This document shows positions 4,063 through 11,330 of a stretch of 14,644 nt of DNA, one piece after another. Each line of letters starts with the position of its first letter. Position 1 is the first letter of the stretch. The position numbers were made by a program, and so were the translations under genes. The notes beneath the pieces are model-generated. The model worked only from the letters and a program-made list of their open reading frames with translations. It made no database searches and was not told the origin of the DNA. The DNA comes from a virus (taxonomy: Duplodnaviria; Heunggongvirae; Uroviricota; Caudoviricetes): the IMG/VR virus record IMGVR_UViG_2681813318_000007, positions 1 to 14,644 of that record. One strand, 5' to 3'.

Positions 4063-6861
4063 ATGTGGGGAAGTGAAAACAAACAAAATCTGGACGTACT
4101 GGATCCTGTGCAGTTGGTGCGTATCGAAGCGGTACACCGGGGGTTCCTTTACCAGCATCTTTACGCTGTAGGCTGCTTACTTTTGGCGCAGAGGGCAGCT
4201 ATGGACTCAGTAACTGTCGAGCTTGATGAGGATATTGAGCTGAAATCCAAACAGGAACGTCTCTACATTCAGGTTAAAACCCGTTCAAAACCTATTATGC
4301 CCAACGATGTGTCGGGGGCTCTGGAGCGATTTGTAAAGCTCAGAAATGAGCATACTTCGGCAAACCGCGAAGGGGTGGCTTCTTTTGTGATTATTGTAAA
4401 CCAGGCGCCTGGACCGCTGCTTCAGAAGATGATTGACGATAAAAAGCTTCCTTCTGATGTTCTTATTGTCTGGCCCCAGTCGACAGCTGGACGTCACCCG
4501 GCACTTCCGCCCGCATGGAGTACTCTGGCTGATGCGGCCACATGGTGTATCGCAGAAGCAGAAAAGCTGAAATTTTCACTATTGTCCCCAGAATCCTTGA
4601 TTTGGAAGTTAGCAGGATTGGTTCAGCTTGCCGCCACCGGAGGCGATATCAATGGACAACATACGTTTTTCACGGAAGAACTTACTGAACTATTTGAACA
4701 GTTGATCGTTCAGCTACAGGACTTTCCTGCACCACCAGCACTGTACCGCCCACAGAACGAAGAACCTTCTCTCACATCTGGTGAGCGGATCCGTATCCTT
4801 TGTGGACTCTCAGGTGCAGGCAAGACAGCTTGGGCCGCACAGGCCGCATTACACTCCACTGCACTTTGTGCTTATTACGACACCGGTGATCTTCCCGGTC
4901 CAGCTCTGGCCAGTACGCTGGTGCGCGAGATGGCTGCTAGATTTACAGCCCGTGACCAAGACGGTTTGCGCAGGATTTTGCTCCCCGGTGCCAGTGGTTT
5001 TGAGGCTCTTAGGAGTTTTGATACCTACCTGAAAGAGCAGGGTACCACCTTGGTGCTGGTTCTGGATAACGCCCATCGTGTACCTGCGGAAAATCTACTG
5101 GATGTTCTGAATGCAACTACACATATTCGTTTTGTGCTGTTGTGCCAGCCTCACGAAAACGTTCGCGAACTGGAGGTCATGACGGGGCTACAGCGCGAGG
5201 GCCTGCAGGGATGGAATCTCGATACGGTAGCTGTCGTTGTAAACGATATCGGAGGATTTGCCACCGCTATGGGATACGAGCAGCTACGGGCTTACACTGG
5301 TGGTCTTCCCCTGTATGTAGAGAGCGCCGCAAAAATCGCCGTTTCTGATTATGAGCGTAATGTCGATGCTCTGTGTGCTGAACTCCAGCAACAAACCCAT
5401 ACTGCGGAAACCGCCCAAGAAATTATTCTGTCACGTGTATTTCAGGGATTTGAATCACTACTTCAGAGCGCGCTGGCATTGTTCAGTCTCTCTGACGTAG
5501 GGCTGAGTCGCGAAGAGATTTCTACGCTCCTAATCAATTCGCTGAACATTTCACCAAGCAGTGCTGCTTCTTTAATTAGGAAAATGCGCGCTACTGGCAC
5601 TATTGAAATTTATGGAAACCAGACCCTGAAGGTACATGATGCTGTCAGGGGGCTAGGACTGCAACATCTGGAACTGATGGATCAGGGTATATCGAACAAA
5701 GCGCTACTAGCGCTGAAAGACCTTTTAGTTGAAAGTCTTCATAATACCCGCAATACAAAACGGTTATCGTTGTTGACTCAACTTTATATTAAGCTCAATG
5801 ATGTCACGACGTTGATCGAACTCTCAGGCCAAGAAATGTTTTATGAGATGGGCGTGACGGTCGACATTCTTGCAAGCTTGGAGCGTGCTGCAACATCGGA
5901 CTTATTGGGACCTGTTCATAAATTCTGGGCATTGGATGGCCTTGTTTTCGTTGAGCTTAAAGACGGAATATCCGACCACATTGCTCAGAGGTTAAACATC
6001 ATGGGAGCTTTACTTGCGGAGCACAAGTTCGGCTATCAAGAAGAGATGGCCTATGCAATGAAACGAATGTTATTTTCGGCAGAAAGCAATGATGCACGAG
6101 AAGTTCAAAAGCTGGCACAGGAAGTCCGCCCCCAACTCCCAGATGAAGAACATAAACGCATCTTTGACTACAACCATGCCATTGCACTCTGGAGATTAAA
6201 AAAACTCAAGGATGCTGAAACATTAAGCTGTAATGTTATACAAGGGTACTATTCTTTATTTGGTATCACACCTGCTGATGTCATAGGAAAAAACGCCGAC
6301 GCATTATGGAAAACTATTAATCATTCCGAAAATATGCAGGAACACTTTAAACATATGGCTGATGCTCTGGAGTTGCTGGCCAGAATTCGTGATGCGCAGG
6401 GAAAACTGTCACCATTACTGCGTATTCATTCGATGAAGTTCTACAATCTGGCCATGGCCCCGGAATCCATGGTCAGGGTGGGCCAAGATCTGGCGGATGA
6501 GTTTGTTGCCATAAAGGATTACGACGGTGCCAAGGAAGTCATGGAGCAACATGTCCTGCCGGTTGTCAATGAGGCAGGTCTAGTACATCGACTGATTCAG
6601 GTTCGAAGCCAATACGCAGTCATATTAGCACTATCGGGTCAGCATAAAGCAGCTGATGTCGAAATGCAGCGCCTTGCTCCCTATATCGAAGGCCTCACAG
6701 GTGTACAGCGTCAAGAAATCCAAAATCAATCAAATTACATCGTACAGCTTGCCCATAAAGCAGCAAAGACTAAATTAACTGAAGTTTTTGGTGCGGTCGG
6801 CCGGAATGAACAATGCCCCTGTGGCTCGGGAATAAAGTACAAAAAATGTCACGGTGCCTGA
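4063..6861 (+). CDS. Large multidomain protein (932 aa): Cap4/DUF4297-like N-terminal nuclease, P-loop STAND/AAA_16-like NTPase, helical C-terminal region, terminal SEC-C zinc motif; candidate antiphage defense protein (Avs-like)
   Basis: Uninterrupted 2.8-kb ORF. N-terminus has GFLYQHLYAVG, VELDEDIEL and LYIQVK (a PD-(D/E)xK-like E/D...QxK pattern). Walker A GLSGAGKT at aa 248-255 (nt 4804..4827) and Walker B LVLVLDNAH at aa 330-338 (MalT-like hhhhDxxH). The last 15 residues are CPCGSGIKYKKCHGA (SEC-C). AT-rich flanks; lies in the nin region next to a hok locus. Confidence 0.85.
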   Translation: MWGSENKQNLDVLDPVQLVRIEAVHRGFLYQHLYAVGCLLLAQRAAMDSVTVELDEDIELKSKQERLYIQVKTRSKPIMPNDVSGALERFVKLRNEHTSANREGVASFVIIVNQAPGPLLQKMIDDKKLPSDVLIVWPQSTAGRHPALPPAWSTLADAATWCIAEAEKLKFSLLSPESLIWKLAGLVQLAATGGDINGQHTFFTEELTELFEQLIVQLQDFPAPPALYRPQNEEPSLTSGERIRILCGLSGAGKTAWAAQAALHSTALCAYYDTGDLPGPALASTLVREMAARFTARDQDGLRRILLPGASGFEALRSFDTYLKEQGTTLVLVLDNAHRVPAENLLDVLNATTHIRFVLLCQPHENVRELEVMTGLQREGLQGWNLDTVAVVVNDIGGFATAMGYEQLRAYTGGLPLYVESAAKIAVSDYERNVDALCAELQQQTHTAETAQEIILSRVFQGFESLLQSALALFSLSDVGLSREEISTLLINSLNISPSSAASLIRKMRATGTIEIYGNQTLKVHDAVRGLGLQHLELMDQGISNKALLALKDLLVESLHNTRNTKRLSLLTQLYIKLNDVTTLIELSGQEMFYEMGVTVDILASLERAATSDLLGPVHKFWALDGLVFVELKDGISDHIAQRLNIMGALLAEHKFGYQEEMAYAMKRMLFSAESNDAREVQKLAQEVRPQLPDEEHKRIFDYNHAIALWRLKKLKDAETLSCNVIQGYYSLFGITPADVIGKNADALWKTINHSENMQEHFKHMADALELLARIRDAQGKLSPLLRIHSMKFYNLAMAPESMVRVGQDLADEFVAIKDYDGAKEVMEQHVLPVVNEAGLVHRLIQVRSQYAVILALSGQHKAADVEMQRLAPYIEGLTGVQRQEIQNQSNYIVQLAHKAAKTKLTEVFGAVGRNEQCPCGSGIKYKKCHGA

Positions 6862-6934
6862 GTCTTTGTACGACCATGCGGGCCTTATTGTCTTGCTATT
6901 GCTCTTATGGTTCGCCTTTCTGATTGATTTCATA

Positions 6935-6963
6935 TTGGCGAGGTGACGGGAGTTAAGTAGAAT
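6935..6963 (+). promoter_or_regulatory. Candidate hok/mok mRNA promoter
   Basis: TTGGCG at 6935..6940, 17-bp spacer, TAGAAT at 6958..6963. The predicted transcription start near 6969-6970 coincides with the 5' fold-back element. Confidence 0.45.
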
Positions 6964-6967
6964 GGCT

Positions 6968-6981
6968 GCGGGTGCTTGAGG
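6968..6981 (+). promoter_or_regulatory. 5' fold-back-inhibition element of the hok mRNA (pairs with 7344..7358)
   Basis: GCGGGTGCTTGAGG is complementary, with one bulge, to CCTCAATGCACCCGC at 7344..7358 just upstream of the terminator, the 5'-3' pairing typical of hok mRNAs. Confidence 0.55.
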
Positions 6982-7081
6982 CTATCTGTCTCAGGCATGA
7001 ACACCAAAGGCAGATAGAGAAAAGCCCCAGTTAACATTACGCGTCCTGCAAGACGCTTAACATTAATCTGAGGCTCAATCT

Positions 7082-7294
7082 ATGAACGGCAAATCTAGGT
7101 TAGCCTCTTACGTGCCGAAAGGCAAGGAGAAGCAGGCTATGAAGCAGCAAAAGGCGATGTTAATCGTCCTGATCGTCATCTGTTTAACCGTCATAGTGAC
7201 GGCACTGGTAACGAGGAAAGACCTCTGCGAGGTACGAATCCGAACCGGCCAGACGGAGGTCGCTGTCTTCACAGCTTACGAACCTGAGGAGTAA
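7082..7294 (+). CDS. mok: Mok-like reading frame (70 aa) extending hok upstream in the same frame
   Basis: ATG at 7082 in frame with hok; the extension MNGKSRLASYVPKGKEKQA precedes the Hok sequence, as I recall for chromosomal mokC. Confidence 0.45.
   Translation: MNGKSRLASYVPKGKEKQAMKQQKAMLIVLIVICLTVIVTALVTRKDLCEVRIRTGQTEVAVFTAYEPEE
7139..7294 (+). CDS. hok: Hok/Gef-family type I toxin (51 aa membrane peptide)
   Basis: MKQQKAMLIVLIVICLTVIVTALVTRKDLCEVRIRTGQTEVAVFTAYEPEE is near-identical in pattern to HokC/Gef (MKQHKAMIVALIVICITAVVAALVTRKDLCEVHIRTGQTEVAVFTAYESE). Confidence 0.9.
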   Translation: MKQQKAMLIVLIVICLTVIVTALVTRKDLCEVRIRTGQTEVAVFTAYEPEE

Positions 7295-7362
7295 GAGACC
7301 AGGCGGGGGAGAAATCCCTCGCCACCTCTGATGTGTCAGGCATCCTCAATGCACCCGCACTT

Positions 7363-7389
7363 AACCCGCTTCGGCGGGTTTTGTTTTTT
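7363..7389 (+). terminator. Rho-independent terminator of the hok mRNA
   Basis: AACCCGC-TTCG-GCGGGTT stem-loop followed by TTTTGTTTTTT. Confidence 0.8.
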
Positions 7390-7461
7390 CCTGGCATTCT
7401 GGTTTACAATTCGCACGCCAGCCTGAACAACTGGCACCTGCTGCGCCAGCAGAGACAACCG

Positions 7462-7740
7462 ATGGCGCACGATACCAAATTACACAATTCTAATGATTCT
7501 GCTGTCTTTGCCAGCAGGTGCGGACGGCGTTTTCACGCATTCACATCAGACTGGTTCCAGCATCCTCCATGCACTGAAGAGCAGGCTGAATGGATAATTC
7601 AGTGTTACCGCAGGCGTGGATACGAGGTTAAGAAAGCTCTTAGTCTCGACTATCGTCACTGGATAATCTCAGTCAGACTCCCTTACTCCGAACGCCCACC
7701 GCGTCCGTCCCGCACATTCCAGCAACGCATCTGGAGGTAA
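7462..7740 (+). CDS. Hypothetical prophage protein (92 aa)
   Basis: Internal ATG at 7462 downstream of the hok terminator; the track start at 7333 would run through the terminator. Stop is 1 nt before the next gene. Translation MAHDTKLHNSNDSAVFASRCGRRFHAFTSDWFQHPPCTEEQAEW...; weak Shine-Dalgarno. Confidence 0.5.
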   Translation: MAHDTKLHNSNDSAVFASRCGRRFHAFTSDWFQHPPCTEEQAEWIIQCYRRRGYEVKKALSLDYRHWIISVRLPYSERPPRPSRTFQQRIWR

Positions 7741-10139: not shown

Positions 10140-10215
10140 GGCCCTTTAGCTCAGTGGTGAGAGCGAGCGACTCATAATCGCCAGGTCGCTGGTTCAAATC
10201 CAGCAAGGGCCACCA
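10140..10215 (+). tRNA. tRNA with CAU anticodon (Ile2/Met type, ileZ-like)
   Basis: 76-nt cloverleaf: acceptor GGCCCTT/AAGGGCC, D-arm GCTCAGTGGTGAGAGC, anticodon loop CTCATAA, T-arm GGTTCAAATCC, encoded CCA. Confidence 0.9.
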
Positions 10216-10315: not shown

Positions 10316-10392
10316 GCGTTGTTAGCTCAGCCGGACAGAGCAATTGCCTTCTAAGCAATCGGTCACTGGTTCGAATCCAGTACAGCGCGCCA
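10316..10392 (+). tRNA. tRNA-Arg (UCU anticodon, argO/argN-like)
   Basis: 77-nt cloverleaf: acceptor GCGTTGT/ACAGCGC, D-arm GCTCAGCCGGACAGAGC, anticodon stem-loop ATTGC-CTTCTAA-GCAAT, T-arm GGTTCGAATCC, encoded CCA. Confidence 0.9.
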
Positions 10393-10856: not shown

Positions 10857-11330
10857 ATACATATCTGGATTATCACCTGTTACGGTAAAAAGTTATTGCT
10901 TACTGTTTTTGTGAATGGCATTGCAGCAGCCGGATAATGTCAGTGCTGGCTGACGGTGTGCTGGTGGCGGGTGTGGTGGTTATTGCTTTCCCGTTGCTGA
11001 AAAAGAAAACGCCAGACTGTTAGCCGGGTATCAGTTAGCGGGAGAAATTTTTAAATACTTCACAATTCAGGCGGTTGACTGTTGTCTGGTTTGCGGGGAG
11101 TTTGTTAAAAGAAACTGGCATGGTGAATCCCCCTGTGCGGAGGGGCAATCAGCGAGTAGGTATATGGGATAATCGCGGATTCAGGTGCTGGTACTGAATT
11201 CACCGGGAGGCACCCGGCACCATGCACTTCAATAGATTCTCTCCACATTATGGATATTCTTTCAGAATATCCCACGCAGACTTTGTGTAAATGTTAACAA
11301 ATGTGCGTTTTATTTGATCTGATTCGCTGT

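What the first reader, a model, noticed from the sequence alone, without database searches (positions are those of the whole stretch)
6935..7389. Complete hok/mok type I toxin locus with 5'-3' fold-back pairing, directly downstream of the defense candidate
The Hok peptide is near-identical in pattern to HokC/Gef. A promoter-like TTGGCG-N17-TAGAAT predicts a transcript start at about 6969, where GCGGGTGCTTGAGG (6968..6981) is complementary to CCTCAATGCACCCGC (7344..7358) just before a strong terminator (7363..7389). That is the fold-back-inhibition architecture of functional hok mRNAs, so the locus looks intact rather than decayed. An antisense Sok-like RNA would be expected on the minus strand around 7040..7130, but I could not define its promoter confidently. 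The toxin may stabilise the adjacent island or act in abortive infection.
Basis: partly seen in the sequence, partly recalled or inferred. Interest (0 to 1): 0.55.

Follow-up and report, generated by a model that had tools for sequence, protein, structure and literature searches.

The report
Intact prophage hokD/hokW toxin-antitoxin cassette
This is a complete but ordinary copy of the well-known hok/mok/sok RNA-controlled toxin cassette, sitting in an E. coli lambda-like prophage and about 93% identical in DNA to the experimentally studied hokW-sokW locus of phage Sp5.

Summary
There is a promoter-like site at 6935..6963. The 14-nt 5' element (6968..6981) is complementary to 7344..7358 with one bulged base. 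A terminator lies at 7363..7389. The 51-aa Hok peptide (7139..7294) differs from K-12 HokD at one residue. It matches HokW at 46/51 and HokC at 40/51, so it is HokD/HokW-type rather than HokC/Gef.

Folding predicts the classic two-state hok mRNA. In the full-length RNA, tac pairs with fbi (probability about 1) and ucb covers the mok ribosome-binding site. Once the 3' end is removed, tac pairs with ucb (about 0.98) and the mok site pairs with dcb. Thirty-eight loci from Escherichia, Kluyvera, Photorhabdus, Pantoea and Citrobacter keep these helices, with compensatory changes.

Its promoter is TTGCCT-N17-TAACCT (7125..7097), base-for-base identical to the sokW promoter, whose -10 mutation abolished antitoxin activity (PMC8621323).

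The cassette is a discrete module found in many contexts, so no specific link to the upstream defence candidate is supported. About 70% of complete E. coli genomes carry a close copy, and PGAP annotates the toxin gene as hokD. Already known; low interest.

The parts
6935..6963 (+). hok/mok mRNA promoter: -35 TTGGCG (6935..6940), 17-nt spacer, -10 TAGAAT (6958..6963)
   Evidence: It is the only sigma-70-like site in 6800..7500. A -10-like hexamer (TAGAAT, TATAAT, TACAAT, TAGACT, TATATT and others) sits at the same distance from tac in loci of several genera (alignment). No transcript data are available.
6968..6981 (+). tac (translational activator) element at the mRNA 5' end. The transcription start is inferred at 6968-6970.
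   Evidence: It pairs with fbi in the full-length fold (P 0.90-1.0) and with ucb in the 3'-trimmed fold (P 0.96-0.99). The Rfam RF01794 model starts at 6970. Column 8 of alignment A2 covaries with the fbi column: U-A in 24 sequences, C-G in 11.
6990..6996 (+). Candidate partner (CUCAGGC) of tac bases 6974..6980 for the transient 'metastable' hairpin of the nascent transcript
   Evidence: Seven complementary bases read directly from the sequence. The concept comes from R1 hok (PMC9841398). This is inferred and was not tested statistically.
7022..7028 (+). ucb (upstream complementary box, anti-SD) AAGCCCC
   Evidence: In the full-length fold it pairs with the mok SD (7025, 7026 and 7028 with 7073, 7072 and 7070). 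In the truncated fold it pairs with tac. The tac-ucb pairs are invariant and 99% paired in 38 loci.
7018..7090 (-). Predicted Sok antisense RNA, about 71-75 nt. It has a 9-nt unpaired 5' tail (GCCGUUCAU), a long hairpin, and GGGGC followed by a U-tract.
   Evidence: It folds at -31.5 kcal/mol with a free 5' tail. The body is identical to sokW apart from one loop base and 8 differences in the first 16 nt. sokW is a 71-nt antisense RNA detected by northern blot (PMC8621323). The K-12 sokC annotation aligns with its 5' end at window 7090. The hairpin helix shows compensatory changes: pairs 65-105 AU 26/GC 12 and 69-100 GC 20/AU 14.
7097..7125 (-). Sok promoter: -35 TTGCCT (7125..7120), 17-nt spacer, -10 TAACCT (7102..7097)
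   Evidence: It is 100% identical to the sokW promoter region. Primer YO-421 compared with the wild-type sequence shows that the 'pro-less' mutant changed exactly this TAACCT, and the mutant lost antitoxin activity (PMC8621323). It falls below the generic promoter scan threshold at 7 of 12 matches.
7070..7073 (+). mok Shine-Dalgarno sequence GAGG, 8 nt upstream of ATG 7082
   Evidence: Invariant in 38 loci. It pairs with ucb in the full-length fold and with dcb in the truncated fold.
7082..7294 (+). mok reading frame (70 codons), in frame with hok and sharing its stop codon
   Evidence: ORF list. The arrangement is the same as the annotated mokC/hokC of K-12 and the 70-aa 'MokW-like' CDS of VT2-Sakai. 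Mok differs from MokW in residues 2-5, plus the Hok differences.
7103..7107 (+). dcb (downstream complementary box) GCCUC, adjacent to the Sok -10
   Evidence: It pairs with the mok SD in the truncated fold (7104..7107 with 7070..7073). The pairs at columns 106-109 with 144-147 are invariant in 38 of 38 loci.
7139..7294 (+). hok toxin gene (51 aa; a HokD allele with A10V). Its SD is AAGGAG at 7123..7128.
   Evidence: Pfam HOK_GEF 81.2 bits. 50/51 identical to K-12 HokD and 46/51 to HokW. PGAP annotates the identical DNA as hokD.
7344..7358 (+). fbi (fold-back inhibitory) element CCUCAAUGCACCCGC
   Evidence: A tac-fbi duplex of -18 to -30 kcal/mol is present in 37 of 38 loci.
7363..7389 (+). 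Rho-independent terminator of the hok mRNA
   Evidence: Terminator scan: 7-bp stem with 5 G-C pairs, a 4-nt loop, and a T-rich tail. Cassette homology to other loci ends here.

Best explanation
The region 6935..7389 is an intact hok/mok/sok type I toxin-antitoxin cassette of the HokD/HokW subtype. It is carried in the early-right region of a Qin/Rac-like lambdoid prophage of E. coli.

Proposed mechanism (shown for R1 hok/sok and partly for hokW-sokW; inferred here from sequence and folding):
1. A constitutive promoter makes a stable mRNA of about 420 nt.
2. The 5' tac element is clamped to the 3' fbi element. In that closed form ucb covers the mok ribosome-binding site, so neither mok nor the translationally coupled hok is translated.
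3. Slow 3' trimming removes fbi. tac then switches to ucb, and the mok site moves into a hairpin with dcb. The RNA becomes both translatable and a target for Sok.
4. Sok is a short-lived antisense RNA of about 71 nt, made from TTGCCT-N17-TAACCT on the minus strand. It pairs across the mok start (7018..7090), blocks translation, and marks the duplex for RNase III.
5. When Sok synthesis stops, the stored mRNA is translated. In Sp5 this happens on RecA-dependent prophage induction. The 51-aa Hok peptide then inserts in the inner membrane and kills or lyses the cell.

By analogy with hokW-sokW, the most likely role here is phage-serving: earlier lysis and release on induction, and possibly retention of the prophage. 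It is probably not a partner of the neighbouring gene.
For: Identity:
- Pfam HOK_GEF, 81 bits.
- Rfam RF01794, 110 bits, E = 9e-25, over 6970..7144.
- 50/51 identical to HokD and 46/51 to HokW.
- 93% DNA identity over 417 nt to hokW-sokW of VT2-Sakai, and 95-98% to phages Evi, Tritos and mEp460.
- Identical DNA is annotated as hokD in RefSeq, and the context is a lambdoid prophage (dicB, ydfB/C, YdaS/T, DUF968, RusA, Q).

RNA switch:
- The minimum-free-energy fold contains tac-fbi.
- Pair probabilities are about 1 for tac-fbi in the full-length RNA and about 0.98 for tac-ucb once the 3' end is removed. The mok SD moves from ucb to dcb. This is the model described for R1 (PMC9841398).

Conservation:
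- 38 loci from at least 6 genera keep these helices (81-96% of cells paired, against 30-54% when partners are slid).
- Compensatory changes are present, for example tac/fbi U-A in 24 sequences against C-G in 11.

Sok:
- The promoter and body are identical to sokW.
- The sokW -10 that was mutated experimentally is this TAACCT.
- The predicted RNA has a free 5' tail and a terminator hairpin.

Function of the nearest homologue: it is toxic, neutralised by sokW, partly dependent on RNase III and Hfq, and induced by mitomycin C through RecA. Deleting it halves phage release (PMC8621323).
Against: - There are no transcript, processing or toxicity data for this allele.
- The Sok promoter is weak by consensus (7 of 12 matches) and was missed by the generic scan.
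- The first 16 nt of Sok and mok codons 2-5 differ from sokW at 8 positions, so binding kinetics may differ.
- Chromosomal hokA, hokB and hokC loci were reported not to give post-segregational killing (Pedersen and Gerdes 1999, as summarised in bioRxiv 10.1101/2025.08.07.668861). Structural intactness therefore does not prove biological activity.
- hokW sits in a different part of its phage, at the far right end and not in an early operon. Transferring its role to this locus is an inference.
- Whether this prophage is inducible is unknown.
Confidence: 0.93

Rival explanations
1. The locus is a silent relic. It is structurally complete but biologically inert, like the other chromosomal hok copies, and is simply carried along with a cryptic prophage.
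For: [quoted passage not shown] E. coli genomes carry a median of 2 and up to 11 such places. The prophage context resembles the cryptic Qin prophage of K-12.
Against: Every regulatory element and both reading frames are intact, with no IS element or truncation. The helices are maintained with compensatory changes across genera. The 93%-identical hokW-sokW is active.
Confidence: 0.2
2. The cassette works with, or for, the upstream 932-aa Cap4-nuclease/AAA/SEC-C protein. It would act either as an addiction module that stabilises that gene, or as an abortive-infection effector against superinfecting phage.
For: The upstream protein has defence-like domains: Cap4_nuclease at 27 bits, a weak LmuA/DUF4297 hit, and AAA_22. 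R1 hok/sok on a high-copy plasmid reduced T4 plating (Pecota and Wood 1996, as cited in PMC8621323). The same gene pair occurs in at least two other strains.
Against: The hok cassette is a self-contained module whose homology stops at its own promoter and terminator. It lies behind unrelated genes in other prophages and phages: relBE in K-12 Qin, another gene in phage Tritos, a QueH-like gene, and a transposase. No enrichment of hok near defence systems was found genome-wide. It has its own promoter and terminator.
Confidence: 0.1
3. The 5'-3' complementarity is a chance or terminator-related feature and has no regulatory meaning.
For: One of 2000 shuffled 3' UTRs reached the same duplex energy.
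Against: The pairing has probability about 1 in the ensemble. It is present in 37 of 38 homologous loci. It covaries: U-A to C-G in 11 sequences and G-C to A-U in 5. It matches the experimentally established tac/fbi stem of R1 hok.
Confidence: 0.01

Closest known systems
hokW-mokW-sokW of Sakai prophage 5 (Stx2 phage VT2-Sakai), Takada et al. 2021 (PMC8621323)
   Same: 93% DNA identity over 417 nt. The Sok promoter is identical, and the Sok body differs by a single loop base outside its first 16 nt. Mok is 70 aa and in frame, and Hok is 51 aa (46/51 identical). The tac, ucb, dcb and fbi layout is the same (alignment A2). Both lie in lambdoid prophages.
   Different: There are 8 differences in the first 16 nt of Sok, which correspond to mok codons 2-5. 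There are 5 amino-acid differences in Hok, mostly in the C-terminal tail (TAYEPEE against VDYESEK). The position in the phage differs: here it lies between the replication module and the DUF968/RusA/Q genes, whereas in Sp5 it is at the far right end beside late genes.
hokD (relF) of the E. coli K-12 Qin prophage
   Same: The toxin is 50/51 identical. DNA identity is 98% from window 7125 to 7388, covering the hok SD, ORF, 3' UTR, fbi and terminator. The downstream neighbours are the same (rem/DUF968 ydfU/Q-like ydfT).
   Different: The K-12 copy lacks everything upstream of 7125: the promoter, tac, ucb, the mok start and Sok. That region is replaced by relBE. The window holds the full-length form of which K-12 hokD is a truncation.
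hokC/mokC/sokC (gef) of E. coli K-12
   Same: The architecture is the same, including an in-frame mok. About 74% DNA identity, and Hok is 40/51 identical. The annotated sokC aligns with the predicted Sok 5' end.
   Different: sokC lacks the 18-nt palindromic extension of the Sok hairpin. In K-12, IS186 has removed the fbi end.
hok/mok/sok of plasmid R1 (parB), the paradigm
   Same: The same mechanism is predicted: a tac/fbi clamp, ucb/mok-SD sequestration, a tac/ucb and SD/dcb switch after 3' trimming, and a cis-antisense Sok over the mok start.
   Different: R1 is plasmid-borne. The peptide is distant: the authors report 44% identity between HokW and R1 Hok. Plasmid maintenance by post-segregational killing is shown for R1 only.

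Membership tests
Hok/Gef toxin family (Pfam PF01848) | A peptide of about 50 aa with an N-terminal membrane helix and the conserved C-terminal Hok/Gef domain, scoring above the Pfam gathering threshold | tested here: met
   81.2 bits against a cut-off of 22, covering aa 6-47 of the 42-position model. 50/51 identical to HokD. The NCBIfam Hok subfamily model scores 49.5 bits, which is below its strict cut-off of 73.
[quoted passage not shown] | An overlapping mok reading frame with its own Shine-Dalgarno sequence upstream of hok | tested here: met
   ATG 7082, a 70-codon ORF in frame with hok, and SD GAGG at 7070..7073. The layout matches the annotated mokC and MokW. Translational coupling itself is not testable here.
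[quoted passage not shown] | Long-range 5'-3' pairing (tac/fbi) that closes the full-length mRNA | tested here: met
   14 bp with one bulge, P 0.90-1.0, -27.3 kcal/mol. Conserved and covarying in 38 loci.
[quoted passage not shown] | Alternative pairings: ucb with the mok SD in the closed form, and tac with ucb plus the mok SD with dcb in the 3'-trimmed form | tested here: met
   Predicted in folds of 6968..7389 and 6968..7340. The helices are invariant and 99-100% paired across 38 loci. Because the pairs never vary, this is conservation and not covariation.
[quoted passage not shown] | A cis-encoded antisense Sok RNA with its own promoter, a free 5' tail and a terminator hairpin, complementary to the mok translation start | tested here: met
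   Met at the sequence level only. The promoter TTGCCT-N17-TAACCT is identical to the functionally validated sokW promoter. The predicted RNA folds as expected. The transcript itself has not been observed.
[quoted passage not shown] | Match to the Rfam covariance model RF01794 ('sok') | tested here: met
   110 bits against a gathering score of 59, full-length model, 6970..7144. The match is on the + strand, which is the hok mRNA leader strand. The minus strand scores only 14.9 bits. The hit therefore identifies the leader/Sok-target region and does not show an antisense transcript.
[quoted passage not shown] | Hok is toxic, Sok neutralises it, the mRNA is trimmed at its 3' end, and RNase III cleaves the duplex | not testable with these tools
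   Shown for hokW-sokW (toxicity, antitoxin activity, partial RNase III and Hfq dependence) and for R1. Inferred here by homology.

The most novel reading that the evidence does not exclude
The hokD-type cassette may mark a cargo-exchange hotspot in Qin/Rac-like lambdoid prophages, between the replication genes and the DUF968/RusA/Q block. Different accessory or defence genes sit on either side of it: the Cap4-nuclease/AAA/SEC-C gene here, relBE in K-12 (which overwrote the hok 5' half), other genes including ImmA/IrrE in phage Tritos, and a 670-bp insert after the terminator in strain AR_0089. The toxin cassette would then help retain whatever cargo lands there. The evidence does not exclude this, but it rests on a handful of loci.
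Probability: 0.12. Interest if true: 0.35.

Novelty: already known. Interest (0 to 1): 0.1.

Why it matters
It matters little beyond correct annotation. RefSeq labels only the toxin ORF (hokD), so the mok frame, the Sok RNA gene (about 7018..7090, minus strand) and the mRNA control elements can be added. The locus also shows what the full-length ancestor of K-12's truncated hokD (relF) looks like. Anyone studying the neighbouring defence candidate should know that a self-contained toxin cassette sits 75 bp downstream. It could confound cloning or deletion experiments, because removing the Sok promoter region while keeping hok would be lethal.

Tried and rejected
1. Loss of the YUNR 'U-turn' motif. 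I suspected the window allele had lost this motif in the Sok-target loop. A scan of 38 loci showed many homologues also lack it, so it is not distinctive.

2. Read-through as the trigger. I considered that transcription reading through from the phage early operon might silence the convergent Sok promoter on induction, which would explain the loss of sokW after mitomycin C. However, hokW in Sp5 is not in the pL operon between int and exo. It lies at the far right end next to late genes, so the idea does not generalise and was dropped.

3. isrK. A sub-threshold Rfam hit covers the hok 3' UTR and terminator at 7303..7384 (27 bits against a gathering score of 50). The alignment shows only a generic shape of two hairpins plus a U-tract, so it was rejected.

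4. Cognate versus non-cognate tac/fbi duplex energies. These separated only weakly (-22.9 against -21.4 kcal/mol) because the element is so conserved. The column-wise covariation is the better test.

5. The generic promoter scan found no minus-strand promoter. The Sok promoter was located through homology and published primer sequences instead.

6. PADLOC has no model matching Hok/Mok.

7. The first Sp5 region I fetched (early genes) contained no hok. The locus was found through the phage collection instead.

Full report
**Where the window comes from**

The 521 bases around the finding are 100% identical to two E. coli chromosomes. Related sequence occurs in 4,956 of 5,426 complete E. coli genomes, and 3,827 of those have at least 80% coverage. 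The median is 2 places per genome and the maximum is 11.

In the identical record the context is a lambdoid (Qin/Rac-like) prophage. The gene order is dicB, ydfC, ydfB, YdaS/YdaT, a replication protein, DUF977, a 932-aa 'SEC-C metal-binding domain' protein, hokD, a small hypothetical gene, DUF968, RusA, antiterminator Q, and tRNAs. PGAP annotates only the toxin ORF, and names it hokD.

**Checking the observation**

All the stated features are present.
- The promoter scan finds a single site in 6800..7500, TTGGCG-N17-TAGAAT at 6935..6963.
- The same scan finds a single terminator at 7363..7380, followed by a T-rich tail.
- The minimum-free-energy fold of 6968..7389 pairs 6968..6981 with 7344..7358, leaving T7350 bulged. 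The fold is far more stable than shuffles (z = -7.9).
- In the ensemble each of the 14 pairs has probability 0.90-1.00.
- The duplex energy is -27.3 kcal/mol. Only 1 of 2000 shuffled 3' UTRs matched it, and it is the best + strand partner of the 5' element in the whole window.

The toxin ORF is 7139..7294 (51 aa; Pfam HOK_GEF 81 bits). The 70-codon ORF from ATG 7082 is in frame with it. K-12 mokC/hokC and the 'MokW-like' CDS of phage VT2-Sakai have the same in-frame arrangement.

**Which Hok it is**

The peptide is 50/51 identical to K-12 HokD (RelF), with one A10V change. It is 46/51 identical to HokW and 40/51 to HokC/Gef.

At the DNA level the cassette is 93% identical over 417 nt to the hokW-mokW-sokW locus of Sakai prophage 5. 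It is 95-98% identical to copies in phages Evi, Tritos and mEp460.

**The RNA switch**

The R1 paradigm, as summarised in PMC9841398, runs as follows. The full-length mRNA is held closed by a tac/fbi stem while ucb sequesters the mok SD. [quoted passage not shown]

Folding the window sequence reproduces this without any constraint.
- Full-length RNA: tac-fbi has P of about 1, tac-ucb has P = 0, and the mok SD (7070..7073) pairs with 7025..7028.
- RNA cut at 7340: tac-ucb has P 0.96-0.99, and the mok SD pairs with 7104..7107.

A 7-bp hairpin (6974..6980 with 6990..6996) could serve as the metastable co-transcriptional structure. I read this from the sequence and did not test it.

The Rfam model RF01794 matches 6970..7144 at 110 bits. 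That match is on the + strand, so the model describes the hok leader. It is not evidence for the antisense transcript. The minus strand scores 14.9 bits.

**Comparative support**

A scan of one genome per species returned 54 loci. I aligned 38 with an intact 5' end (A2). They come from Escherichia, Shigella, Kluyvera, Pseudocitrobacter, Citrobacter, Pantoea and Photorhabdus.

| Structure tested | Cells paired | Cells paired when partners are slid |
|---|---|---|
| tac/fbi helix | 82.6% | 35-54% |
| tac/ucb plus inner hairpin | 95.5% | 30-54% |
| Whole closed 5' domain | 81.0% | about 37-44% |
| Whole open 5' domain | 82.6% | about 34-50% |

- The tac/fbi helix shows true compensatory changes: U-A in 24 sequences against C-G in 11 at one pair, and G-C in 22 against A-U in 5 at another.
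- The variable tac base (column 8) is the one left unpaired in the tac/ucb stem. It changes together with fbi but not with ucb.
- The tac/ucb helix alone is 99.2% paired.
- The closed and open 5' domains each have 12 pairs with changes on both sides.
- The ucb/SD, SD/dcb and tac/ucb pairs never vary. That is expected for segments with two partners, but it means they are conserved rather than covarying.
- A tac-fbi duplex of -18 to -30 kcal/mol exists in 37 of the 38 loci.

**The Sok gene**

The generic scan finds no minus-strand promoter. I located the gene in two other ways.

First, I aligned K-12 hokC/mokC/sokC, whose sokC is annotated. That places the Sok 5' end at window 7090 and its 3' end in the U-tract near 7018-7020.

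Second, Takada et al. showed that sokW is a 71-nt antisense RNA. Mutating its -10 ('pro-less') abolished protection. Comparing their mutagenic primer YO-421 with the wild-type sequence shows that the mutated hexamer is TAACCT.

In the window, the minus strand reads TTGCCT (7125..7120), a 17-nt spacer, TAACCT (7102..7097), six bases, and then G7090. The whole promoter and the Sok body are identical to sokW. The exceptions are 8 differences in the first 16 transcribed bases and one loop base.

The predicted RNA has a 9-nt free 5' tail, a long hairpin and GGGGC followed by a U-tract (-31.5 kcal/mol). The hairpin helix shows compensatory changes across genera.

The variable 5' tail coincides with mok codons 2-5. 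It also varies among other close homologues (alignment A2). Because Sok is cis-encoded it stays perfectly complementary to its own mRNA. Whether this patch limits cross-talk among the several hok copies in a genome is my inference only.

**Intact or decayed**

K-12 hokC has lost its fbi end to IS186. K-12 hokD is homologous to the window only from 7125 onward, and relBE replaces the promoter, tac, ucb, the mok start and Sok. The same relBE-hokD fusion is seen in other E. coli and in a Kluyvera. The window copy has none of these lesions, so it represents the full-length form of hokD.

**Relation to the upstream gene**

The 932-aa protein has a Cap4-type nuclease/DUF4297/LmuA-like N-terminus, an AAA ATPase region and a C-terminal SEC-C motif. 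It is a reasonable defence candidate in its own right.

The hok cassette's homology to other loci starts at about 6950-6962 and ends at about 7382-7389, which are its own promoter and terminator. It lies downstream of unrelated genes elsewhere: relBE, a different gene in phage Tritos, a QueH-like gene, an IS transposase, and Ea22/DUF551-type phage genes.

A recent survey of 44,248 Hok homologues found enrichment in prophages but none near defence systems. I therefore see no support for a specific functional link.

A few loci suggest that both flanks of hok are cargo slots in this prophage lineage. That is the most novel reading left open, but it rests on few cases.

**Likely role**

For the nearest homologue, HokW is toxic and localises to the inner membrane. 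sokW disappears and HokW appears after RecA-dependent prophage induction. Deleting the locus delays growth arrest and halves phage release.

By homology I consider a phage-serving role on induction the most likely one here, with prophage retention as a possible addition. This is an inference, because hokW sits in a different part of its phage.

**Verdict**

The interpretation as an intact hok/mok/sok locus with fold-back inhibition is correct, and it can now be completed with the Sok gene. The HokC label and the tie to the defence candidate are not supported.

The locus belongs to a thoroughly described family and has a closely related, experimentally characterised homologue. Its toxin gene is already annotated in public genomes. 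It is already known and of low interest.

Noticed in passing
window 4063..6861 (+): The 932-aa protein has a Cap4_nuclease/DUF4297/LmuA-like N-terminus (aa 25-119), an AAA_22 ATPase (aa 239-364) and a C-terminal SEC-C motif (aa 914-931). No PADLOC model covers the whole protein. It looks like a STAND-type antiphage candidate carried as a prophage moron.
   Followed up: partly
window 7277..7282 (+), Tyr47 codon of hok: UACGAA is invariant in all 38 aligned hok loci. It matches the TadA A-to-I editing motif. Editing that recodes Tyr to Cys has been reported for hokB, and a similar phenomenon for hokC, hokD and hokE (bioRxiv 10.1101/2025.08.07.668861). In the fold, the three bases ACG are unpaired.
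   Followed up: partly
window ~6950 and ~7389; L002 3484..4155; L007 4452..6326: Both flanks of the hok cassette look like cargo slots. Strain AR_0089 has a 670-bp insert with a 130-aa ORF right after the hok terminator. Phage Tritos has two extra genes there, including an ImmA/IrrE peptidase, and a different upstream gene. K-12 Qin has relBE overwriting the hok 5' half.
   Followed up: partly
window 7082..7096 (+) / Sok bases 1-16: mok codons 2-5, which correspond to the Sok 5' recognition tail, form a small hypervariable patch among otherwise 93-98% identical cassettes. Examples are AACGGCAAATCT here, CTGAACACATGT in hokW and TCTCACAAATGT in E. albertii. It may limit cross-talk between paralogous Sok RNAs. 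This was not tested.
   Followed up: no
window 11089..11279 (+): There is a full-length match to the Rfam sRNA STnc100 (114 bits against a gathering score of 47), downstream of the Q antiterminator and tRNA genes.
   Followed up: no
window 10140..10215 and 10316..10392 (+): There are two phage-borne tRNA genes, with anticodons CAT and TCT (Arg). The closest RefSeq record has three tRNAs here (Ile, Arg, Arg), so the window differs from that strain downstream of hok. The flank is 89% identical.
   Followed up: no
window 7303..7384 (+): A sub-threshold Rfam hit to the Salmonella prophage sRNA isrK (27 bits against a gathering score of 50) covers the hok 3' UTR hairpin, fbi and terminator. The alignment shows only a shared hairpin-plus-terminator shape.
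   Followed up: yes
L023, L028, L013 (genome contigs) and H29 (phages): Near-identical hokD sequence appears on tiny contigs assigned to Acinetobacter idrijaensis (275 bp) and Xanthomonas pisi (431 bp), and in an 'Actinobacillus phage' record (97% identity). These are probably E. coli contamination or misassignment rather than real host range.
   Followed up: no
window 6970..7144 against Rfam RF01794: The Rfam family named 'sok antitoxin' matches the hok mRNA strand, not the Sok strand (110 bits on +, 14.9 bits on -). The model is 157 positions long, about twice the length of Sok. Automated annotation with this model would therefore place 'sok' on the wrong strand.
   Followed up: yes
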